DNA of 64,000 nt from an uncultured Sangeribacter sp. (GTDB lineage Bacteria > Bacteroidota > Bacteroidia > Bacteroidales > Muribaculaceae), in NCBI GenBank assembly GCA_964524385.1, contig CAZGEX010000007.1, positions 14,487 to 78,486 on the forward strand. The letters are read 5' to 3'. Below, piece by piece: positions 10,714 to 44,770 of the stretch (position 1 is its first letter; each line of letters starts with the position of its first letter). The position numbers and the translations under genes are program-made. Below the pieces are notes generated by a model. That model had not been told where the DNA came from. It did not search any database and saw only the letters and a program-made list of their open reading frames with translations.

Positions 10714-10985
10714 CGTATATCTATAATTTATTTTACACAAAAAAAGCATTATCCTATAGCGGACAATGCCAAAACTCTATAATTTCATCCTAATAGGATA
10801 AAATTTTTATTGAGCAGTTTTAGCATTTTTTTCAGTGGTTGCAAGCAGCCAAATTTTTCCACTTCGTATATCCCTTCGGAAATTTGTTGCAAAGGTAGTA
10901 TTTTTTTTGCATTTAAACTCATTATTGGCATTATTTAACATTTACACCTATCTTTTTTATTCTCATTTTTATTATCTTTGCATTG

Positions 10986-33967: not shown

Positions 33968-34287
33968 CATTTAGCAAATTAATGTTAATCTACCCACAAA
34001 CAACACTTAATACTGTTAAATGTTATTAATATTTAGCGAAAATTATATGTTTTATAACATTGTTTTAGAAAATATAATTAACTTTGCATTGAGTTTTCAT
34101 GGTATTAGATTTTAAGGTTAACACATGGATTGGTTGTCGTGAGACAATCAATTTTTTTTGCGACAACCATCAGGAGTTATTTTCACCATTTGAATCTGAT
34201 TATAAAACACACACGTAAAAATCAAATACAACTAAAAAAATCGTTACAATAAAATTCAAAAGATTAGGTAATTACAAAAAAAAAGAG

Positions 34288-34437: not shown

Positions 34438-35916
34438 ATGGAAGAAAAAAAAGCAAAACGACCAAGAATCGGTGCTACATTAAGTGCTTCTGCATCTGAA
34501 AATGGCGAAGGGGAAACTCGCTACGAAAAAGTAAATTATCCTGCAGAACGTGCAGCACAATCGACTGAACGTCCTCAATACCGTTCAAACTACAACGACC
34601 GTCCTTACCAACCACGCCAACAACAAAACAACTATCAACGTCAAAGCGGATATAACAACAACCGATATAACAACTACGGTCAACAACAAAGCTATTATCA
34701 ACAACACCATAATTTTGAATCTCGTCAAGAGTTGTCATCTGAACAATCAGTAGCAACCGACAATATTCAATCAAACTTAAGTCAATCAGAAGGAGGCTAT
34801 ATCCCTCGTCAACAATATAACAACTACCAACAACGTCCTTATAACAACAATCGCCAAGGAGATTACAACAACTATCACAACAACCGATATAATAACTATC
34901 AGCGTCCTTACAACAATGATGGCGACATGCAAGACAATGGTTACACACCACGTCATAATCGTCAAGGAGGTTACAACAATAATCGCCAAGGAGGCTATAA
35001 TAATCGTCAAGGAGGTTACAACAATCGTCAAGGAGGTTACAACAATCGTCAAGGAGGTTACAATAACAATCGCCAAGGAGGTTATAACAATAATCGTCAA
35101 CAAAAGAACCGCAATAATGGAGACTACAATCCACAAGGAATGCGATTCACTCCACGCCCTAAAGCAGTGGAGTATGTACTTAACGACATCGATCCTAACG
35201 AACCAATTCGCTTGAACAAGTTCATGGCAAATTCCGGCGTTTGCTCTCGTCGCGAAGCTGACGAATACATTGCAGCAGGATTAGTAAAAGTCAATGGCGA
35301 AATTGTAACAGAACTCGGCACAAAAATTTCACGCTCAGATGTGGTAGAATACAATGAAAAAGTAGTAACCCCTGAACGTAAATGCTACATCCTTCTCAAT
35401 AAGCCCAAAGACTGCGTCACTACTACCGACGATCCTAACGGACGCAAAACAGTACTCGACTTAGTCAAAAATGCTTGTCAAGAAAGAATTTACCCGGTAG
35501 GACGTCTTGACCGTAACACCACAGGCGTACTTCTTCTTACCAACGACGGCGACCTCGCATCTAAATTGACTCATCCAAAATTTGTAAAGAAAAAAATCTA
35601 CCACGTTTGGACAGACAAAGACATCAGCGAAGACGATATGCAACGCATCGCCGACGGCATAGAACTTGAAGACGGCGAAATTCACGCAGATGCAATAAGC
35701 TATGTAACAGAAAAAGACCGCAACCAAGCAGGAATCGAAATTCACTCCGGACGAAATCGTATTGTTCGTCGCATTTTCGAATCACTCGGCTATCGCGTAA
35801 CAAAACTTGATCGTGTCTACTTCGCAGGATTAACTAAAAAGAACCTTCCTCGCGGAAAATGGAGATACCTATCACAAGAAGAAGTGAATTATCTTCGTCA
35901 AGGTTCATTCGAATAA
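34438..35916 (+). CDS. rluB: RluB/RsuA-family rRNA pseudouridine synthase with ~255-aa N/Q/R/G/Y-rich N-terminal extension
   Basis: S4 domain IRLNKFMANSGVCSRREADEYI and catalytic GRLDRNTTGVLLLTNDG. The N-terminus is low complexity, with six NRQGGYN(N) repeats. Confidence 0.85.
   Translation: MEEKKAKRPRIGATLSASASENGEGETRYEKVNYPAERAAQSTERPQYRSNYNDRPYQPRQQQNNYQRQSGYNNNRYNNYGQQQSYYQQHHNFESRQELSSEQSVATDNIQSNLSQSEGGYIPRQQYNNYQQRPYNNNRQGDYNNYHNNRYNNYQRPYNNDGDMQDNGYTPRHNRQGGYNNNRQGGYNNRQGGYNNRQGGYNNRQGGYNNNRQGGYNNNRQQKNRNNGDYNPQGMRFTPRPKAVEYVLNDIDPNEPIRLNKFMANSGVCSRREADEYIAAGLVKVNGEIVTELGTKISRSDVVEYNEKVVTPERKCYILLNKPKDCVTTTDDPNGRKTVLDLVKNACQERIYPVGRLDRNTTGVLLLTNDGDLASKLTHPKFVKKKIYHVWTDKDISEDDMQRIADGIELEDGEIHADAISYVTEKDRNQAGIEIHSGRNRIVRRIFESLGYRVTKLDRVYFAGLTKKNLPRGKWRYLSQEEVNYLRQGSFE
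34957..35100 (+). repeat. In-frame 21/24-bp tandem repeat inside rluB
   Basis: Six consecutive units aatcg(t/c)caaggagg(t/c)ta(t/c)aa(c/t)aa(t...) encoding NRQGGYN(N). Confidence 0.9.
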
Positions 35917-37472: not shown

Positions 37473-38405
37473 ATGACAGACAAGAAAAATAATTTTTGGT
37501 TTCACATCATCGTAATTATCGTCGTATCAATTTGGGGTACAACTTACATTTCAACATCAATCCTTCTTGATGGCGGACTTGAAGACACCTCCTCCGGCGG
37601 ACTGAAACCGATACAAATCTACACTTTACGGAGCATCATTGCCTATATCGGCTTGCTAATTGCCTGTCATAAACAAATCTTGGTCTCAAGCCTTCGCGAC
37701 GAACTGACTTTCATAGTTTTGGGACTTACAGGAGGAACTATTTACTATCTGTGTGAAAACACTGCCGTAGAACTTGGAAACACATCTAACGTTTCGCTCA
37801 TTATCTCCACCGTTCCAATAGCGACAATGCTACTGACAGCCGCAGTGCATAAGAAGAAAATTTCATCCCTGATGATAGTTGGTTCGCTGATTGCACTCAC
37901 AGGGATTACGTGTGTTATCTTAGCCGACAACAATAAATTCAGCATCGGATTTGATGCATTCAGAGGCGATTTGCTTGCCCTCGCCGCCGTTGGTTCTTGG
38001 GCCATCTATAGCGTAATCATTCCTACGATGTTCGACCGCTACTCCTCTTTGTTTGTAACTCGCAAGGTATTTTTCTATGGGATGCTGTCAGCTGTAATTA
38101 TTTTGATTGTCTCCGGTCAAGATATATTCCCTATTGAAATCATTTCTCGCCCAATTGTGGCAAGCAATCTCCTATATCTCGGATTAATCGCATCTCTTTT
38201 ATGCTTTTGGGTATTCAATATTGCAATTCAAAGAATCGGGATAGTCGTCACCAACAACTATGGCTATCTTACACCGGTAGTTACCTTTATATTTGCCATT
38301 CTAATTCTCGGGGATGAATTTAATTGGTACGGAATTATCGGAATATCCATTACTCTACTCGGATTGTGCATCGCACAACGTAACGACACAAGCCTCAAAT
38401 CCTAA
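37473..38405 (+). CDS. DMT superfamily (EamA-type) transporter
   Basis: 310 aa, about 10 TM segments, two EamA-like halves. Confidence 0.8.
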   Translation: MTDKKNNFWFHIIVIIVVSIWGTTYISTSILLDGGLEDTSSGGLKPIQIYTLRSIIAYIGLLIACHKQILVSSLRDELTFIVLGLTGGTIYYLCENTAVELGNTSNVSLIISTVPIATMLLTAAVHKKKISSLMIVGSLIALTGITCVILADNNKFSIGFDAFRGDLLALAAVGSWAIYSVIIPTMFDRYSSLFVTRKVFFYGMLSAVIILIVSGQDIFPIEIISRPIVASNLLYLGLIASLLCFWVFNIAIQRIGIVVTNNYGYLTPVVTFIFAILILGDEFNWYGIIGISITLLGLCIAQRNDTSLKS

Positions 38406-38623
38406 CCTTCTAAGTAAATCCATAAGGCATATTTTATAAATTGAACGCTTTCAAATCGTTAATTTTCAATTTAGTATCCAGAGTGTATTCAGAACAATTT
38501 TTGAAACACAAAACCACATTATCACAAATTTTAAAAGAAGCTTTCACACTGTTCTAAATATCCTTTTTTTGGTCAATATAGAACAAAAAACATAAACGCT
38601 AATCATTTATTAAAAATCTTTAT

Positions 38624-38631
38624 TATATTTG
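38624..38631 (+). promoter_or_regulatory. Candidate -7 promoter box (TATATTTG) for the RiPP operon
   Basis: TAnnTTTG match 41 nt upstream of the precursor ATG at 38672. No ATG occurs anywhere in the 266-nt gap after eamA. Confidence 0.4.
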
Positions 38632-38671
38632 CCTTAGAATATATATTTCACAACTTTTAAATAATAATATC

Positions 38672-38956
38672 ATGAGTACTAAAAAAATTTTTGACATTCC
38701 TGAATTGACAAGGGATGAGGCAGGAAAACTTTTTGGAGGATTTGTATCATTAGATCCAAGTGGAGGTGTTGACTCTTCGGGAATAAACATTCTTTGCACA
38801 AACACTAATTGTAGCTGTCCGTCCAACCCGATTTCTACATGCGGAGAAACTAATTCTCAATCATGCACATCAAACCCCTCATCTTGCACTACCAACAATG
38901 GTTGTCCCACTAACTTTATCGGTTGTTCTACAAATGTAGTTGAAGGATGCGATTAA
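38672..38956 (+). CDS. RiPP precursor peptide: double-glycine leader plus Cys/Thr/Ser/Asn-rich core
   Basis: 94 aa. Leader MSTKKIFDIPELTRDEAGKLFGG, with a second GG at residues 31-32. The core has 9 Cys and no basic residue. It lies immediately upstream of a radical-SAM/SPASM gene and a C39-peptidase ABC exporter. Confidence 0.85.
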   Translation: MSTKKIFDIPELTRDEAGKLFGGFVSLDPSGGVDSSGINILCTNTNCSCPSNPISTCGETNSQSCTSNPSSCTTNNGCPTNFIGCSTNVVEGCD

Positions 38957-38991
38957 AATTTAACTAAATTGAACTCTATAATTTTTGTGTA

Positions 38992-40281
38992 ATGAAATGG
39001 AATAAATTCATTAGTGTTATAAAACAACCCCAAAACTCGAATAACAGCTACATTATAAACTATTATAACGGGCAGTTAATTTATGTTGTTGATAAATTAG
39101 CAGAATTAGTCATAAATAATACTAACAATATAGAAAACATATTTGAAACACATCCAACATTTGCACAAGAATTATATAAAAAGGGATTCATTGTAGATAA
39201 AAATTTAGACATCCCAAAGATGTGCATTGAAAAACTGAACAACTATTATACTGACAGAAGCGAAATTCGACTCACAATTAACCCTACCTTAGACTGTAAT
39301 TTAAGATGTTGGTACTGCTACGAGGAACACAAAAACGGTACAAAAATGAGTGCAGACATAATAGAAAGCATACTCAAATATTTAGAACTCCAACTTATTT
39401 ATCCTACGAAAAAGTTGATACTCTCATTCTTTGGTGGCGAACCTTTAATTTGTTATAATGATGTAGTTCTAATATTATGCTCCAAGATTAAGGAACTTTG
39501 TACAAGAAACAACATTGAACTGATTATTTCGTTTACAACAAATGGAACATTACTAACTAAATCAAGAATTGAGAAATTACTTTCAATCCACAACAATTTA
39601 TTTTTTCAAATCCCATTTGATGGAAGTGGCGACACTCATAATCTCACAAAACATTTTAAGAACAAAAATGGGAGTTACGACTTAATTTTAAAAAACGTAA
39701 AAAGTGCAATAACACATAAAGGAGTTGAAATTAATATTAGATGCAACTATACCTTAAATAATATTGAATCATTCCGCGAATTAATTAATGAATTTAAAAC
39801 ATATACCGATTACTCTAATTTTTATTTTGATTTTCATCGAGTATGGCAAGAAAAGGAAACCTCAATTCTTAAATCTAAATTAATTGAAATCCAACAATAT
39901 ACCATTAACACTTTAAGCAAAAATCATTTATTAACAATAAAACCCACTCGATGTTATGCAGACAATTATCATAACATCATAATAAACTATGATGGAGGCA
40001 TTTACAAGTGTACTGCCAGAGATTTCAACGACCGACATATTATTGGGCATATTAACAAAAACGGTACAATTACTCAAATATTTCGTAAAATTGAAGATCG
40101 AAATTCTAAATTTATTCTTCCTTGCTGCAAAGAATGTAAAATTCTTCCTATATGTAATATCTGCGGACAAAAGAAAGATGAGTTTATTGATGGTAATTGT
40201 CCATTTATAGATAACTCCGACTATCATCACCAATTAATTTACAACTACTTACAAAAACTATTAACTAATTCTATTTTATAA
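38992..40281 (+). CDS. Radical SAM / SPASM-domain peptide maturase
   Basis: 429 aa. CNLRCWYC (Cx3Cx2C) at residues 102-109. C-terminal C-x14-GGIYKC and CCKECKILPICNIC auxiliary-cluster motifs. About 90 aa precede the core and could be a peptide-recognition element. Confidence 0.85.
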   Translation: MKWNKFISVIKQPQNSNNSYIINYYNGQLIYVVDKLAELVINNTNNIENIFETHPTFAQELYKKGFIVDKNLDIPKMCIEKLNNYYTDRSEIRLTINPTLDCNLRCWYCYEEHKNGTKMSADIIESILKYLELQLIYPTKKLILSFFGGEPLICYNDVVLILCSKIKELCTRNNIELIISFTTNGTLLTKSRIEKLLSIHNNLFFQIPFDGSGDTHNLTKHFKNKNGSYDLILKNVKSAITHKGVEINIRCNYTLNNIESFRELINEFKTYTDYSNFYFDFHRVWQEKETSILKSKLIEIQQYTINTLSKNHLLTIKPTRCYADNYHNIIINYDGGIYKCTARDFNDRHIIGHINKNGTITQIFRKIEDRNSKFILPCCKECKILPICNICGQKKDEFIDGNCPFIDNSDYHHQLIYNYLQKLLTNSIL

Positions 40282-40284
40282 ATT

Positions 40285-42369
40285 ATGAATAGACATCTTT
40301 TATTTGTAACTACCATAATCATTTCTTTAAATGCGGTTGCAAAGTCTACCGACAATCATTCGAATGATACAACATATAAAGAATTAAAGGAATTTGTTGT
40401 AGAAGGACAATCTTCATTTATAACAGATAATGGAATGATATTTATTCCAAACAAACAAGTAAAAAATGCCTCTAATGATGCTATCTCACTCTTGAGGAAT
40501 ATGGCAATTCCTGTGCTTCAGATAGATCCATTAGGAAATTCTGTTAAAAACATTTCAAATTCTGATGTCAACATTTTCATCGATTTTCAACCTGCTACCC
40601 AACAAGAAATTTTGGGTATGCGTACAAAAGATGTAGTCCGAGTGGAATATTATGACAATCCGACAGACCCAAGATTCAAGGGTTCGAGAGCTGTTGTAAA
40701 TTTTATAATGAAGAAATATCAATATGGTGGTTATTTAAAACTAAATGCAGGACAATCATTTTTTTATAATGCCGGTGACTATCGTCTGTATTCAAAAATC
40801 AGTCATAAACGAATGACATACGACATTTCGTTAGGAGCAAAATATGCCATAGACAACGGTAAAAGAGTGTCTTCTCTTCACAACTATCATTTTGTTGATG
40901 ATTTTACCGAAAAATACACAATTCAAAGAATATCTGAAGGGGAGGGGAGGGATAAATCCAACACTGCATACGCATCTTTTAGAGCGAGATACTCTACCAA
41001 TAAAATATTAATATCCAACGAAATAGGCTTAACCGGGAACAAAAAGCCCTACTCTTTTATCAATGGGGAAGTCGCTTTTAACTCACTGCCATACAGCGAT
41101 TTCAACAACAACAATACATCTCAATCACTCTCCCCATATTTTAGCGGTAATTACTTTTTTGTTCTATCTAACAGAAGTACATTAAGTGCATCCGTAAACT
41201 TCTCTTACTCGAGAAACAAATCATGGCAAAACTACATTTCCGGTAAATCCGAACCTATTGTCAACAATTCTGACGAACACGTATATTCGCCTAACATTTC
41301 CATCAATTATAACTATAATCTCGGACATAACAATTCTTTTAACCTTGATATTTGGAGTGCAAATAATATTTACAAAAGCGACTATCGCGGATCTTTTGAA
41401 GGCAAACAGTCATTCATCACAAACGATAATTTAATAATCCCATCTTACACTCACAGAATTGGAAATAAAATAAATTTATATGCACGATTAGGACTGCTTG
41501 TTAGTACATTTGACGTAAACGGCAACAAATACTCTCAACTCAACCCACGCATAGGAGCACAACTATCATACACTATTAACAATAAAAATAACCTAAATTT
41601 TCAATTTTGGTTAGCAAGTTCAAATGTACCATTTTCATACATCAATGATGTACTTATGCAAGTCAACGAAATTGAATGGAAACAAGGGAACAATAGTCTT
41701 AAAGGTATGCCATGGTATATGACTACATTAGCCTATACATGGTTGCCAACAAATAAGTTTAGTCTTGCCACATCTTCTTATTTTGAATGCTACACAAATA
41801 AATTTATGCCTGTCTATAATCAATTCGACGACCATATGATTGTCAAATACATCAATAAAGGCGGATGGATAAGATTACGCGAAACCATACAAGCTACCTA
41901 CCGTCCAATAAAAGAAATCACTCTATCCGGATGGTGCCAATATGGCAACTATTTCTGTTACGATGGGAACTATGCAAGAGTTTCAAAAATAATGGGAGGA
42001 CTTAATGCCACCGGCTATTGGAAAAACTTTAGTCTCAATTTATTTTATAGGACTGAAATAACAGATCTAAGTACCCGCTCGGAAAAAGTAACCGTTCCTC
42101 ATCAATACGGATTAGTACTAAGTTACGGCAATTCAAATTGGTGGGCACAACTTAGTGTAATCAACATATTTGATTCTCAAAATTACCGCAATACAATTAT
42201 CGATGTTCCTAATTTTAATTCGAACGAAACCATCTACAGTAATTCAGGAGGGCGAAGCATCGGACTTTCTATTAGCTACACATTTGATTTTGGAAAGAAA
42301 ATAAATCATAGCGACGAATTAAAAGCCCCATCTGAAAACAAATCGGCTATCATGAAAGTAGCAGAATAA
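40285..42369 (+). CDS. Outer-membrane beta-barrel protein (TonB-dependent-receptor-like / OMP_b-brl_3-like)
   Basis: 694 aa. Signal peptide, plug-like N-region (KELKEFVVEGQS...VVRVEYYDNP) and alternating beta-strand pattern ending in SISYTFDF, then a 25-aa tail. Confidence 0.7.
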   Translation: MNRHLLFVTTIIISLNAVAKSTDNHSNDTTYKELKEFVVEGQSSFITDNGMIFIPNKQVKNASNDAISLLRNMAIPVLQIDPLGNSVKNISNSDVNIFIDFQPATQQEILGMRTKDVVRVEYYDNPTDPRFKGSRAVVNFIMKKYQYGGYLKLNAGQSFFYNAGDYRLYSKISHKRMTYDISLGAKYAIDNGKRVSSLHNYHFVDDFTEKYTIQRISEGEGRDKSNTAYASFRARYSTNKILISNEIGLTGNKKPYSFINGEVAFNSLPYSDFNNNNTSQSLSPYFSGNYFFVLSNRSTLSASVNFSYSRNKSWQNYISGKSEPIVNNSDEHVYSPNISINYNYNLGHNNSFNLDIWSANNIYKSDYRGSFEGKQSFITNDNLIIPSYTHRIGNKINLYARLGLLVSTFDVNGNKYSQLNPRIGAQLSYTINNKNNLNFQFWLASSNVPFSYINDVLMQVNEIEWKQGNNSLKGMPWYMTTLAYTWLPTNKFSLATSSYFECYTNKFMPVYNQFDDHMIVKYINKGGWIRLRETIQATYRPIKEITLSGWCQYGNYFCYDGNYARVSKIMGGLNATGYWKNFSLNLFYRTEITDLSTRSEKVTVPHQYGLVLSYGNSNWWAQLSVINIFDSQNYRNTIIDVPNFNSNETIYSNSGGRSIGLSISYTFDFGKKINHSDELKAPSENKSAIMKVAE

Positions 42370-42374
42370 AGACA

Positions 42375-44570
42375 ATGAAAAAGTTTACCTTTGTCAAACA
42401 AAAAGACTCGATGCAATGTGGTGTTGCTTGCTTGAAAATGATATGTCAACATTATGGTAAAAACATAAATATCGACTATCTTGAAAATCTATGCAATACT
42501 ACAATTCAAGGTGTGTCAATACTTAATTTATGTGACACAGCCGAACACATCGGATTTCATACTATTGCCGGACGTCTAACTATTCAGCAACTCATTGAAT
42601 CGACTAAACCGGTTGTCTTACATTGGCATCAAAATCATTTTGTCGTACTATATCGAGTGACCGGACAAGGTAAAAAATTCTATATTGCAGACCCGGGAAT
42701 AGGACTAATAAAATATTCACGCCACGATTTCGAAAAAGCGTGGATAAGTTCTAATACCAATAATGAGGATAGAGGTATTGCTCTACTATTACAACCTACC
42801 CCTTCATTTTTCTCTCACGACTTCAATCTTGAAAAGGTCGAAACACGATCATTCCGCTTTTTGTTTGGATACATCAAACAATATAAGCATTATTTTAGCC
42901 AAATTATTCTCGGGCTACTTATAGGTAGTGTTTTGCAATTAGTTTTCCCTTTTCTAACACAGTCTATTGTGGATGTCGGCATATTTGATAACGATATTAA
43001 CTTCATCCTACTTGTTCTTGTCGCACAACTTATGCTCACGCTTGGTTATGCATCTGTAGGATTCATACGTCGGTGGATATTACTACATGTCGGCATCAGA
43101 ATAAACATCTCATTATTAAGCGATTTTTTCATAAAATTACTAAAGCTCCCGATGAATTTTTTCGACACAAAATTAATGGGAGACATAATGCAAAGAATGA
43201 ATGATCACCAACGAATTCAAACCTTTCTTACATCATCAGTATTGGAAATCACTTTTTCAATAATTAGCTTTATTGTATTAGGCATTGTACTTTTCTTTTA
43301 TAATCCGATTATATTTAGCATCTTAATTCTCGAGAGCATTCTATACGCAATTTGGACTATTCATTTTATGTCAAGACGAAAAGTACTTGACTATATGCTA
43401 TTTGAAAAAAGAGCCAAAAACAGCAATAACACATATCAGTTCATTACATCTATGCAAGAAATAAAACTTCAAGATTGTGAACGTCGGCGTCGTTGGGAAT
43501 GGGAAGATGTACAAGCTGATATGTTTGAAGTTGACATTAAATTATTAAAATTACAACAAACACAAGAAGCCGGAAGTCTGCTTATTAACGAAATTAAAAA
43601 TATTGTTATTACTATATTATCCGCTATAGCTGTAATAGATGGGGAAATGACATTGGGGATGATGCTTGCCGTGCAATATATAATAGGACAACTTAATACC
43701 CCTGTAAAACAACTTATGAATTTCCTATATTCACTCCAAGATGTAAAAATAAGCCTTGAACGAATTAATGACATTCAAGGACAGACAGAAGAAGATGCCA
43801 AATATGGTAATAACACAGATTTTTCAAGAGGTGGTGACATCTGCCTTTCTAATATCTCATTTCGCTATGACCTTTCACTCAGAAAGAATATACTGAACAA
43901 TATTTCCATAATAATACCTGAGGGTAAAGTTACAGCAATAGTAGGAGCAAGTGGAAGTGGCAAAAGCACTTTATTAAAATTAATTCTTGGTTTCTACCCG
44001 GCTACTTCAGGCAACATTACAATAGGCGGTATAAATATTTTAGAATATAACATACGTTGGTGGCGACGACAATGCGGTGTTGTGATGCAAGATGGTGTTA
44101 TATTTTCCGAATCAATAGCACATAATATTGCAGTAAACGACGAGGAAATTGATATGCATCGTCTAGAAGAAGCCGCACAAATGGCCGGCATCACAGATTT
44201 CATAAATTCACTACCTCTAAAATATAACACTATAATAGGAAGAGATGGAATTGGAATAAGTCAAGGTCAACGACAACGTATATTAATAGCAAGAGCAATC
44301 TATAAGCATCCTAAATACATATTTCTGGATGAAGCAACAAATTCTCTTGATGCTAACAATGAACGTCGAATTACTGAAAATCTTGAAAATTTCTATAAAC
44401 ACAGAACCGTCTTTATCATAGCACATCGTCTTAGCACAGTAAAAAAAGCCGATCAAATTATCGTACTTGACAACGGAGAAGTAATTGAAACCGGCAATCA
44501 TAACCAATTAATATCAAAAAAGGGTAAATACTTTCATTTAGTCAAAGACCAACTTGAATTAGAAGCATGA
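42375..44570 (+). CDS. Peptidase-C39-domain ABC transporter (bacteriocin-processing exporter, PCAT type)
   Basis: 731 aa. C39 motifs QCGVACLKM (Cys), HFVVLY (His) and IADPG (Asp). Six-TM domain. Walker A GASGSGKST, signature LSQGQRQR, Walker B IFLDEATNSLD. Confidence 0.9.
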   Translation: MKKFTFVKQKDSMQCGVACLKMICQHYGKNINIDYLENLCNTTIQGVSILNLCDTAEHIGFHTIAGRLTIQQLIESTKPVVLHWHQNHFVVLYRVTGQGKKFYIADPGIGLIKYSRHDFEKAWISSNTNNEDRGIALLLQPTPSFFSHDFNLEKVETRSFRFLFGYIKQYKHYFSQIILGLLIGSVLQLVFPFLTQSIVDVGIFDNDINFILLVLVAQLMLTLGYASVGFIRRWILLHVGIRINISLLSDFFIKLLKLPMNFFDTKLMGDIMQRMNDHQRIQTFLTSSVLEITFSIISFIVLGIVLFFYNPIIFSILILESILYAIWTIHFMSRRKVLDYMLFEKRAKNSNNTYQFITSMQEIKLQDCERRRRWEWEDVQADMFEVDIKLLKLQQTQEAGSLLINEIKNIVITILSAIAVIDGEMTLGMMLAVQYIIGQLNTPVKQLMNFLYSLQDVKISLERINDIQGQTEEDAKYGNNTDFSRGGDICLSNISFRYDLSLRKNILNNISIIIPEGKVTAIVGASGSGKSTLLKLILGFYPATSGNITIGGINILEYNIRWWRRQCGVVMQDGVIFSESIAHNIAVNDEEIDMHRLEEAAQMAGITDFINSLPLKYNTIIGRDGIGISQGQRQRILIARAIYKHPKYIFLDEATNSLDANNERRITENLENFYKHRTVFIIAHRLSTVKKADQIIVLDNGEVIETGNHNQLISKKGKYFHLVKDQLELEA

Positions 44571-44770
44571 ACAAACAAAAAGAAAAAAATGAAATGCATA
44601 GTAGTAAGGTTCGAAACATTTTGCAACAACGTCCGATTTGGTTGGTTCGAAATGGTATCGCTATAATTTTTATAGTATTAATTATAATGCTTGCAATTGC
44701 TACTTTTATCAATTTAGATGATAATAAAACATTTATCGACAAAATCTTTATTCATAGCCATTTACTCTGA
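44567..44770 (+). pseudogene. Truncated HlyD-family periplasmic adaptor (N-terminal 67 aa only)
   Basis: ATGA overlap with the ABC gene. The sequence SKVRNILQQRPIWLVRNGIAIIFIVLIIMLAIATFI matches the N-terminal TM anchor of Bacteroidetes HlyD adaptors, but the ORF stops after 67 aa. Only 78 nt remain before the convergent GSCFA gene. Confidence 0.55.

What the first reader, a model, noticed from the sequence alone, without database searches (positions are those of the whole stretch)
38672..38956. Precursor core carries a reiterated C-x(0-3)-[ST]-N module, nine Cys, no basic residues and two candidate GG cleavage sites
Read from the translation, Cys occur at residues 42, 47, 49, 57, 65, 72, 78, 85 and 93. 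Seven of the nine are followed within 1-4 residues by Thr/Ser-Asn (CTN, CPSN, CGETN, CTSN, CTTN, CPTN, CSTN), so the core looks like a string of about 7-residue modules. After Gly32 there is no Lys, Arg or His, only D34, E59, E91 and D94, so the mature peptide would be anionic and very polar, unlike typical cationic bacteriocins. The leader (IPELTRDEAGKLFGG) fits the double-glycine type, but a second GG (SGG, 31-32) lies 9 residues later, so the true cleavage point is ambiguous. The reiterated Cys/[ST]N pairing suggests one crosslink per module. Candidate chemistries are sactionine (Cys-S to C-alpha) or ranthionine-type (Cys-S to C-beta/gamma of Asn/Thr) thioethers, as known for SPASM maturases. 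This chemistry is inference.
Basis: partly seen in the sequence, partly recalled or inferred. Interest (0 to 1): 0.85.

Follow-up and report, generated by a model that had tools for sequence, protein, structure and literature searches.

The report
Nine-cysteine, nine-asparagine modified-peptide precursor
This small gene encodes the precursor of a ribosomal peptide that a neighbouring radical-SAM enzyme probably staples into about nine small sulfur-bridged rings; it is a rare, expanded member of a large, uncharacterised family in gut and rumen Bacteroidales.

Summary
ORF 38672-38956 encodes 94 aa with Cys at 42, 47, 49, 57, 65, 72, 78, 85 and 93, seven C-x(1-3)-[ST]-N strings, two GGs and an acidic core with no basic residue.

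It is a real RiPP precursor. It heads a five-gene cassette: precursor, CteB-like rSAM/SPASM maturase, outer-membrane beta-barrel, C39-peptidase ABC exporter and a small membrane protein. The cassette's G+C is lower than its flanks.

- Cleavage is after the first GG (G22-G23). The family leader L(-12) E(-8) L(-4) G G F(+1) matches it. The second GG is absent in the closest homologue.
- The conserved core residues are all 9 Cys and exactly 9 Asn. The Ser/Thr before Asn is replaceable.

Across 74 precursors of the maturase family, Asn is enriched upstream of Cys (-3, z=+13) and depleted at +3. The register N-x(2-4)-C pairs all nine Cys with the nine invariant Asn.

The most likely product carries nine in-line Cys-S-to-Asn thioether rings, NxxC/freyrasin-like. 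The chemistry is still inference.

The nine-Cys form is very rare: two close lineages in 1.84 billion representatives. I rate it a new variant of a known kind.

The parts
38624..38631 (+). Candidate Bacteroidetes-type -7 promoter box TATATTTG (TAnnTTTG), 41 nt upstream of the precursor ATG
   Evidence: Pattern found once in 38401-38671. Assignment rests on my recollection of the Bacteroides promoter consensus, so it is inference. The sigma-70 scan is uninformative here.
38672..38740 (+). Leader peptide, residues 1-23 (MSTKKIFDIPELTRDEAGKLFGG), ending in the conserved double glycine
   Evidence: The family leader logo is L-12 79%, E-8 65%, L-4 75%, GG, F+1 54%. I9-P10-E11-L12, L20, G22, G23 and F24 are invariant in the four closest precursors.
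38741..38953 (+). Core peptide, residues 24-94 (71 aa, net charge about -5). Nine Cys and nine invariant Asn are arranged as N39xxC42, N44xxC47, N46xxC49, N52x4C57, N61x3C65, N68x3C72, N75xxC78, N81x3C85, N88x4C93
   Evidence: The stop codon is 38954-38956.
38992..40281 (+). Radical SAM/SPASM peptide maturase, 429 aa. It has an N-terminal RRE-like domain (three strands then three helices), C102x3C106x2C109, and eight further family-invariant Cys for auxiliary clusters
   Evidence: Pfam Radical_SAM and Fer4_12. NCBIfam hits only RiPP-maturase families, all far below cutoff. The AF2 model has pLDDT 91.4. Best PDB matches are CteB 5wgg/5why, by profile E=6e-25 and by Foldseek TM 0.64-0.69 over the full length.
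40285..42369 (+). 694-aa outer-membrane beta-barrel family protein with a signal peptide; a divergent PF14905-like protein
   Evidence: The window copy has no Pfam hit of its own. Five of 8 aligned family members hit PF14905 OMP_b-brl_3, best E 1.2e-13. The orthologue in L170 carries a precomputed PF14905 hit. The same gene position in Segatella salivae holds a clear PF14905 protein, E=2.5e-38.
42375..44570 (+). Peptidase-containing ABC transporter (PCAT): C39 domain with Cys15 in QCG, a transmembrane domain and an ATPase
   Evidence: Peptidase_C39 E=8.5e-33, ABC_membrane and ABC_tran. NCBIfam bacteriocin/NHLP exporter models score below cutoff.
44567..44770 (+). 67-aa single-pass membrane protein whose start overlaps the PCAT stop. 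It is conserved after the PCAT in related cassettes
   Evidence: Translation. Homologous 71-aa ORF in L081. A 159-aa version with the same N-terminal helix follows the PCAT in L004. Its role is unknown.

Best explanation
The ORF is the precursor of a thioether-crosslinked RiPP. Steps 1-5 are the proposed pathway.

1. The 23-residue leader (IPELTRDEAGKLFGG) is bound by the N-terminal RRE-like domain of the adjacent CteB-like radical SAM/SPASM enzyme.

2. That enzyme uses 5'-deoxyadenosyl radical chemistry to join each of the nine core Cys thiols to a carbon of a nearby Asn. The most likely target is the Asn beta-carbon, as NxxcB does in its NxxC motif.

3. The pairing that fits the data best is Asn upstream of Cys: N39-C42, N44-C47, N46-C49, N52-C57, N61-C65, N68-C72, N75-C78, N81-C85 and N88-C93. 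This gives nine small rings of 4-6 residues. They lie in line, except for the two interleaved rings in N44-T-N46-C47-S-C49.

4. The C39 domain of the PCAT then cuts after G23 and exports the 71-residue, acidic, highly polar product. The co-conserved outer-membrane barrel probably carries it across, or back across, the outer membrane.

5. Status of each step. Shown here: the gene is real; the cassette is conserved; the first GG is the family site; Cys and Asn are the selectively conserved residues in 9:9 stoichiometry; Asn sits upstream of Cys family-wide; the maturase has the fold of a thioether synthase. Inferred: that crosslinks form at all, that they are thioethers, which carbon is attacked, the exact pairing, and the biological activity.
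For: Cassette and synteny.

Closest precursor homologue (P0122/P0128, 47-49% identical): all 9 Cys and 9 of 10 Asn are invariant against 13/52 other core residues (Fisher p=1.9e-4), with Ser 1/13.

Family-wide analysis of 74 non-redundant cores next to rSAM homologues:
- Asn at -3 of Cys z=+13.1, -1 z=+7.6, -5 z=+6.8, -4 z=+4.5.
- Any Asn within 5 residues upstream z=+9.1; within 5 downstream z=-2.4.
- NxxC is present in 57/74 cores; C.[ST]N in 7/74.

Leader consensus.

Maturase: CX3CX2C plus SPASM Cys are invariant. The best NCBIfam neighbours are all Cys-rich-peptide rSAM/SPASM maturases, including PapB. The best solved relative is the thioether synthase CteB by profile and by fold.

Chemical precedent: NxxcB makes an Asn C-beta thioether in NxxC (PMC9389541). 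PapB makes six in-line thioethers in reiterated CX3D motifs and tolerates 0-6 spacer residues (PMC9413430).
Against: - No chemistry was or could be tested here.
- The sequence is periodic, so both registers exist in it. In the window peptide C-x2-N spacing is actually more regular (5 of 7 modules) than N-x(2-4)-C.
- Of three indels between the two lineages, two preserve N-to-C spacing and one preserves C-to-N spacing. That is only weak discrimination.
- The maturase reaches no curated family cutoff and is about equally distant from several families of unknown or different chemistry.
- It has eight invariant non-rSAM-motif Cys. Both auxiliary clusters could therefore be fully ligated, as I recall for anSME, rather than leaving an open site for the substrate thiolate as I recall for CteB.
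- In the wider family not every Cys has an upstream Asn (76%).
- A second precursor subfamily shows Asn at +2 (G-x-C-x-N).
Confidence: 0.5

Rival explanations
1. Each Cys is linked to the Asn (or Thr/Ser) 2-4 residues downstream, the PapB orientation (Cys-Xn-acceptor). This gives seven rings and leaves C47 and C93 free, disulfide-bonded or otherwise used.
For: C-x2-N is the most regular spacing in the window peptide and its homologue. PapB works in this orientation on reiterated motifs (PMC9413430). The rSAM hits the PapB model at E=3.8e-34. P0122 ends in C-E-N-D, so its last Cys does have a downstream Asn. A second family subgroup shows C-x-N.
Against: It leaves two invariant Cys (C47, C93) and two invariant Asn (N39, N46) unexplained. 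Asn at +3 of Cys is depleted across the family (z=-2.5), and C.[ST]N occurs in only 7/74 cores. The Ser/Thr is not conserved. The PapB score of 118 bits is far below the 340-bit cutoff.
Confidence: 0.2
2. It is a sactipeptide-type product. Thioethers go from Cys sulfur to alpha-carbons, of Asn or of other residues, possibly with nested hairpin topology.
For: SPASM thioether synthases of both types share this architecture. The Foldseek list also includes SkfB. From memory, Asn is an alpha-thioether acceptor in ruminococcin C. Sequence alone cannot tell the alpha-carbon from the beta-carbon.
Against: Cys and Asn alternate along the whole core. They are not split into a Cys-rich half and an acceptor half, as I recall for hairpin sactipeptides (subtilosin, thurincin H, ruminococcin C), though not for non-hairpin ones such as GggB/QmpB products (PMC10288494). 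The best solved relative, CteB, is listed among the ranthipeptide maturases that make gamma-thioethers to Thr, not sactionines (PMC9389541, PMC10352776).
Confidence: 0.13
3. The rSAM performs a different modification (for example epimerisation, a C-C or C-O crosslink, or Cys oxidation as in anSME). The Cys then form disulfides or bind metal, and Asn is conserved for turns or solubility.
For: The maturase belongs to no characterised family. anSME is the second-best structural match. Eight invariant auxiliary Cys are compatible with fully ligated clusters. SPASM enzymes are chemically diverse (PMC9389541).
Against: Nine is an odd number for disulfides. The 9 Cys: 9 Asn invariance and the fixed Asn position relative to Cys across the family point to a pairwise relationship. 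No aromatic residues recur as they would in cyclophane or C-C systems.
Confidence: 0.12
4. It is a spurious ORF, or an unmodified class II bacteriocin that merely lies next to an rSAM gene.
For: No Pfam or NCBIfam model hits the peptide.
Against: The position directly upstream of the rSAM is conserved in dozens of loci with a shared leader. A homologue sits in a syntenic cassette. There is strong selective conservation of Cys and Asn.
Confidence: 0.03

Closest known systems
NxxC subfamily / NxxcB (Streptococcus RaS-RiPP; Caruso et al. 2019, as summarised in PMC9389541)
   Same: The acceptor Asn lies upstream of the donor Cys, and four of the nine proposed pairs are literally N-x-x-C. An rSAM enzyme with auxiliary Fe-S clusters is predicted to make the link. 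Small in-line rings are expected.
   Different: NxxcA is described with one Asn-Cys link; nine are predicted here. The host is Gram-negative Bacteroidales. The system has a GG leader, a PCAT and an outer-membrane barrel. No sequence relationship to NxxcB could be tested, because no model or sequence was available. Spacings here extend to x3 and x4.
Freyrasin / PapA-PapB ranthipeptide (PMC9413430)
   Same: The core is built from reiterated short Cys/acceptor modules with one thioether per module, mostly in line. The maturase is a SPASM rSAM. PapB is among the best NCBIfam neighbours (E=3.8e-34).
   Different: In freyrasin the acceptor is Asp in CX3D, downstream of Cys. Here no Asp pairs with Cys, the conserved partner is Asn, and family statistics put it upstream. 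The PapB model score (118 bits) is far below its cutoff (340).
CteB (PDB 5wgg/5why), thioether synthase of Clostridium thermocellum
   Same: It is the best solved structural and profile match over the full length: N-terminal RRE, rSAM barrel and SPASM.
   Different: Sequence identity is only 18%. CteB makes a Cys-Thr gamma-thioether (PMC9389541, PMC10352776) on a SCIFF-type precursor; I recall a single link. The precursor here is unrelated to SCIFF.
Single-rSAM + PCAT clusters of Bacteroidales noted by genome mining (PMC10352776)
   Same: These have the same kind of cassette (GG-leader peptide, rSAM, PCAT, sometimes an outer-membrane protein), are abundant in Bacteroidales and are uncharacterised.
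   Different: That survey gives no chemistry and no motif analysis. I could not establish whether its BGC1/BGC2 belong to this rSAM family.

Membership tests
Double-glycine (GG) leader peptides processed by C39 PCATs | G-G at -2/-1 with hydrophobic -4, acidic -8 and hydrophobic -12, plus a PCAT with a catalytic Cys in the cluster | tested here: met
   L12, E16, L20, G22 and G23. The PCAT has Peptidase_C39 at E=8.5e-33 and Cys15 in QCG.
rSAM/SPASM RiPP maturases | CX3CX2C, a C-terminal Cys-rich SPASM region, and an N-terminal precursor-recognition (RRE-like) domain | tested here: met
   C102/C106/C109 are invariant, as are C251, C321, C340, C379, C382, C388, C391 and C403. The model shows three strands then three helices at the N-terminus, and the full-length match is to CteB. 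Pfam's SPASM model itself is not hit in the window protein, although it is in homologue P0008.
PapB-family ranthipeptide maturase (NF047865) / freyrasin | Score above the curated cutoff; reiterated Cys-X3-Asp motifs in the precursor | tested here: not met
   118.4 bits against a cutoff of 340. The core has no CX3D motif.
SCIFF-type ranthipeptides (TIGR03973 precursor; the antiSMASH rule) | The precursor matches the SCIFF model | tested here: not met
   No NCBIfam hit for the precursor even at E<=10. Ranthipeptides detected by this rule are nearly absent from Bacteroidota (PMC13289728).
NxxC / NxxcB beta-thioether RiPPs | An N-x-x-C motif in the core | tested here: met
   N39xxC42, N44xxC47, N46xxC49 and N75xxC78, all invariant. 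NxxC is present in 57/74 family cores.
NxxC / NxxcB beta-thioether RiPPs | Maturase homologous to NxxcB; product carries an Asn C-beta-S-Cys bond | not testable with these tools
   No NxxcB sequence, model or structure was available. The chemistry needs MS and NMR.
Sactipeptides | Cys-S to C-alpha bonds; I recall an N-terminal Cys block pairing with C-terminal acceptors in a hairpin for several members | tested here: inconclusive
   The hairpin layout is absent, because Cys and Asn alternate. Bond position cannot be tested. SkfB is only a distant fold match.
Curated Cys-rich-peptide maturase families (TIGR04463, geopeptide TIGR04280, CefB NF038107, Clo7bot TIGR04334) | Score above each curated cutoff | tested here: not met
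   134, 122, 121.8 and 117.1 bits against cutoffs of 525, 400, 600 and 600.

The most novel reading that the evidence does not exclude
The window peptide is the most reiterated member of a very large, unnamed Bacteroidales RiPP class. That class comprises more than 3,600 maturase clusters with the cassette precursor - rSAM - outer-membrane barrel - PCAT. Its defining feature would be an Asn-upstream-of-Cys motif (N-x-N-C / N-x2-4-C). Its crosslink would be either the first Gram-negative multi-ring Asn-Cys ranthionine ladder, with nine rings in 55 residues (N39-C93), or a Cys-Asn linkage of a chemical type not yet described. The dedicated outer-membrane barrel would indicate a dedicated export or re-uptake route rather than a simple bacteriocin.
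Probability: 0.3. Interest if true: 0.8.

Novelty: new variant of a known kind. Interest (0 to 1): 0.6.

Why it matters
No class I (modified) bacteriocin or RiPP from Bacteroidales had been characterised as of the 2023 mining survey (PMC10352776), although these bacteria dominate gut and rumen communities. Standard ranthipeptide detection rules find almost none in Bacteroidota (PMC13289728).

This locus gives a concrete, testable substrate-enzyme pair. The precursor has 9 invariant Cys and 9 invariant Asn, with a defined leader and cleavage site. The pair is linked to a family of thousands of related cassettes that share an Asn-before-Cys motif.

If the predicted poly-thioether ladder is confirmed, it would:
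- extend radical thioether chemistry with an Asn acceptor to a major Gram-negative group;
- supply a maturase that processes many sites on one substrate, which is useful for peptide stapling;
- open the question of what these acidic, highly polar peptides do in gut ecosystems.

Tried and rejected
- A word-indexed search with the precursor found only itself. The exhaustive HMMER search was needed to find P0122 and P0125. A profile search added only P0126.
- A metagenome scan for closer maturases gave nothing above 41% identity. The genome scan gave at most 40%.
- Pfam and NCBIfam scans of the window precursor gave nothing at E<=10. NCBIfam scans of six family precursors at E<=10 gave only two chance-level hits (E about 0.5).
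- A single-sequence PDB search with the rSAM gave only BtrN at E about 1e-3; the profile was needed.
- The 694-aa protein had no Pfam hit alone and no PDB sequence match even as a profile. hhalign against the Segatella outer-membrane protein was insignificant, with probability 5.8%.
- DNA tandem and direct repeat searches in the ORF found nothing meaningful, so I rejected recent module duplication.
- The sigma-70 promoter and terminator scan is uninformative in this AT-rich Bacteroidetes DNA.
- Cluster look-ups returned no organism names.
- Literature searches found no experimental work on this family.
- I considered N-glycosylation sequons and rejected them by reading the translation: among the nine invariant Asn only N68-P-S has Ser/Thr at +2, and Pro at +1 excludes it.
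- I considered Thr as the acceptor and rejected it on stoichiometry: 5 conserved Thr against 9 Cys.

Full report
**1. The observation.**
ORF 38672-38956(+) translates to a 94-residue peptide. A script confirmed every stated fact.
- Cys lie at 42, 47, 49, 57, 65, 72, 78, 85 and 93.
- The strings CTN, CPSN, CGETN, CTSN, CTTN, CPTN and CSTN are present.
- GG occurs at 22-23 and 31-32.
- There is no K/R/H after K19. Acidic residues are D28, D34, E59, E91 and D94.
- The Cys-then-[ST]N association is far above chance for this composition: 8 observed against 1.8 +/- 1.3, p = 2.5e-4 over 20,000 shuffles.

There is no DNA tandem repeat in the ORF. The modules are therefore maintained at the peptide level and are not recent duplications.

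**2. Context.**
The ORF heads a same-strand, tightly packed cassette.
- Precursor, 38672-38956.
- Radical SAM enzyme, 38992-40281.
- 694-aa protein, 40285-42369.
- C39-peptidase ABC transporter, 42375-44570.
- 67-aa membrane protein overlapping the PCAT stop, 44567-44770.

Pfam finds Radical_SAM and Fer4_12 in the enzyme, and Peptidase_C39, ABC_membrane and ABC_tran in the transporter. The cassette lies between an EamA transporter gene and a GSCFA-family gene. Its G+C is 33% against 39% in the flanks. In four metagenome contigs carrying the same locus, the cassette is 99-100% identical and the flanks about 97%. The window is from a Bacteroidetes genome: it has a FopS sRNA and a SAM-II riboswitch, and all relatives of the cassette come from Bacteroidales.

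**3. The maturase.**
NCBIfam returns only peptide-modifying rSAM/SPASM families: TIGR04463, geopeptide, CefB, PapB and Clo7bot. All score 117-134 bits against cutoffs of 340-600. It therefore belongs to no curated family.

It has more than 3,600 homologues at 30-51% identity, from Prevotella, Segatella, Muribaculaceae, Alistipes, Bacteroides and others. In an alignment of 27 members the invariant residues include the CX3CX2C Cys (C102, C106, C109) and eight further Cys (C251, C321, C340, C379, C382, C388, C391, C403).

A profile search of PDB sequences gives CteB (5wgg) as best hit, E = 6e-25. An AlphaFold2 model with mean pLDDT 91.4 matches CteB over its full length (TM 0.64-0.69). The match includes an N-terminal domain of three strands then three helices, typical of precursor-recognition elements. 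anSME, TigE, SkfB, ChlB and SuiB follow. The enzyme thus has the architecture of a SPASM thioether synthase, but its chemistry cannot be read from homology.

**4. The rest of the cassette.**
The 694-aa protein has no Pfam hit of its own. Five of eight aligned relatives hit PF14905, the outer-membrane beta-barrel family (best E 1.2e-13). Its orthologue in locus L170 carries that hit too. In typical family loci, such as Segatella salivae DSM 15606 (L004), the same position holds a clear PF14905 protein at E = 2.5e-38.

The family cassette is therefore precursor - rSAM - outer-membrane barrel - PCAT - small membrane protein. The 67-aa ORF has a homologue in L081 and a 159-aa counterpart in L004.

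**5. Precursor relatives.**
The word-indexed search found only the peptide itself. An exhaustive HMMER search of 1.84 billion representatives found two small-peptide relatives.
- P0122 (95 aa, 47% identical) lies upstream of the closest maturase (51%), a 56%-identical barrel and a 61%-identical PCAT.
- P0125 shares the leader and the first motif N-I-I-C-S-N-T-D-N-C-x-C, then continues with a Ser/Thr-rich tail. Its cluster carries glycosyltransferases.

A profile search added only P0126. Cluster look-ups gave the minor variants P0127 and P0128. The nine-Cys design is thus confined to two closely related lineages and is very rare.

The next-closest maturases (41-43% identical) have ordinary 4- or 5-Cys precursors such as ...SNGNCQGGGWGDTNTNCTGTCSKC....

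**6. Which GG.**
I extracted 80 GG-containing, Cys-containing small ORFs directly upstream of maturase homologues in the fetched loci (L001-L167). Their leaders share L at -12 (79%), E at -8 (65%), L at -4 (75%), G-G, and F at +1 (54%).

The window peptide matches with L12, E16, L20, G22-G23 and F24. The second GG has Pro at -4 and is replaced by F-G in P0122 and P0128. Cleavage after G23 by the C39 domain is therefore the supported site. The mature core is F24-D94, 71 residues, with net charge about -5.

**7. What is conserved in the core.**
In the alignment of the window peptide, P0127, P0122 and P0128, the invariant core residues include all nine Cys and exactly nine Asn: N39, N44, N46, N52, N61, N68, N75, N81 and N88. 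N76 is not conserved.

| Residue class | Conserved |
|---|---|
| Cys | 9/9 |
| Asn | 9/10 |
| All residues other than Cys/Asn | 13/52 |
| Ser | 1/13 |
| Thr | 5/9 |

The Asn-versus-other contrast gives Fisher p = 1.9e-4. The residue before each conserved Asn is S or T in most cases, but I, V, H or N in others. Selection therefore acts on Cys and Asn in 1:1 stoichiometry, not on the Ser/Thr. This argues against a Thr/Ser acceptor and for a pairwise Cys-Asn relationship.

**8. Which register.**
The peptide is periodic, so both C-x(1-3)-N and N-x(2-4)-C can be read from it. The opposite register pairs every invariant Cys with an invariant Asn: N39-C42, N44-C47, N46-C49, N52-C57, N61-C65, N68-C72, N75-C78, N81-C85 and N88-C93.

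Independent evidence comes from 74 non-redundant family cores, with the window peptide and P0122 excluded. Z-scores are against 1,000 shuffles.

| Asn position relative to Cys | z |
|---|---|
| -5 | +6.8 |
| -4 | +4.5 |
| -3 | +13.1 |
| -1 | +7.6 |
| +1 | -4.7 |
| +2 | +3.7 |
| +3 | -2.5 |

- Seventy-six per cent of Cys have an Asn within five residues upstream (z = +9.1).
- Forty-six per cent have one within five residues downstream (z = -2.4).
- NxxC occurs in 57/74 cores and N-x-N-C in 38/74.
- C.[ST]N occurs in only 7/74.

The family hallmark N-x-N-C-x-C can be read as two interleaved NxxC motifs. It is present in the window peptide as N44-T-N46-C47-S-C49.

There are caveats. C-x2-N is the more regular spacing within the window peptide. 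Of three indels between the two lineages, two preserve the N-to-C distance and one the C-to-N distance. A second precursor subfamily, with leader RIxxFIESLP...GG, shows G-x-C-x-N repeats.

**9. Mechanism proposed.**
By analogy with characterised enzymes, the maturase most likely abstracts a hydrogen from each Asn and couples it to a nearby Cys thiol.
- NxxcB forms a Cys-S to Asn-C-beta thioether in an NxxC motif (PMC9389541).
- PapB forms six in-line thioethers in reiterated CX3D motifs and tolerates 0-6 spacer residues (PMC9413430).

The product would carry nine small rings. The PCAT removes the leader and exports it, and the conserved barrel handles outer-membrane transit in one direction or the other. 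All of this paragraph is inference; none of the chemistry was testable here.

Eight invariant auxiliary Cys mean a fully ligated auxiliary cluster cannot be excluded. That keeps the last rival alive.

**10. Comparison with the known, and novelty.**
The system works most like NxxC-type and freyrasin-type ranthipeptides, and its enzyme looks most like CteB. It is not a member of the PapB, SCIFF, TIGR04463, CefB, Clo7bot or geopeptide families, because each model was tested and its cutoff not met.

Literature searches found only a bioinformatic survey. It notes that single-rSAM plus PCAT clusters are abundant and uncharacterised in Bacteroidales (PMC10352776). Another study reports that rule-based ranthipeptide detection finds almost none in Bacteroidota (PMC13289728).

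I rate this a new variant of a known kind. It is a rare nine-module expansion within a large, unnamed Bacteroidales rSAM-RiPP family whose Asn-before-Cys motif I did not find described in the searched literature. Interest is moderate to high (0.6). The prediction is sharp and directly testable, but the chemistry is inferred and the general category (radical thioether RiPPs) is established.

Noticed in passing
window 34091-34161 (+): Rfam match to the Bacteroidetes FopS sRNA family (68.3 bits, gathering score 56), just upstream of the 34438-35916 ORF.
   Followed up: no
window 10810-10868 (-): SAM-II (long-loop) riboswitch aptamer, 62.1 bits against a gathering score of 44. The downstream gene was not examined.
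   Followed up: no
window 34438-35916 (+): This 492-aa ORF has a long low-complexity N-terminal half rich in N, Q, Y and G, with reiterated 'NNRQGGY' units. The C-terminal half reads like an S4-domain pseudouridine synthase. That is read from the translation only.
   Followed up: no
window 38672-44770 versus flanks: The cassette has 33% G+C against 39% in both flanks. It is 99-100% identical to four metagenome contigs whose flanking genes are only about 97% identical. This suggests a mobile or recently swept island.
   Followed up: partly
L047, L052, L056, L063, L075, L076, L079, L113, L116, L141, L163: A second precursor subfamily sits next to related maturases. Its leader is 'RIxxFIESLP...(L)L...GG' and its cores carry 5-7 repeats of G-x-C-x-N. 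Several of these loci (L047, L052, L056, L063, L075, L076) have a 22-26% identical homologue of the 694-aa barrel protein.
   Followed up: partly
L166 7001-7279 and L167 4999-5277: Precursors P0125/P0126 share the window peptide's leader and first Cys/Asn motif but end in a Ser/Thr-rich tail. Their cluster adds a GT2 and a 'Branch' glycosyltransferase and a 951-aa unknown protein. This suggests a glycosylated relative.
   Followed up: partly
L135 1411-2446 and L140 1753-2771: These loci carry four tandem precursor genes ('...EELNELVGG' leaders, cores with C-x-C and C-x-C-x-C motifs) upstream of one maturase homologue.
   Followed up: no
L003, L007, L023, L027, L056, L079 (about 400-800 bp upstream of the precursor); L168 2060-2413: A recurrent ORF of about 120-150 aa with a signal peptide lies just upstream of many family precursors. 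Examples end in '...GYLTF', '...GYIVL' or '...GYISF'. It has no Pfam hit where tested (L056:5096-5515). It may be a further conserved cassette component and is absent from the window.
   Followed up: no
L006 and L080: Contigs labelled Flexilinea sp. and Lactococcus garvieae carry Bacteroidales-type maturase homologues. This is probably binning contamination in those assemblies.
   Followed up: no
window 44567-44770 (+): The 67-aa membrane protein after the PCAT looks like a shortened version of the 159-aa protein in the same position in Segatella salivae (L004 11846-12325). No HlyD-type membrane fusion protein matched among the cassette proteins scanned against Pfam and NCBIfam; the 67-aa ORF was scanned against Pfam only.
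   Followed up: partly
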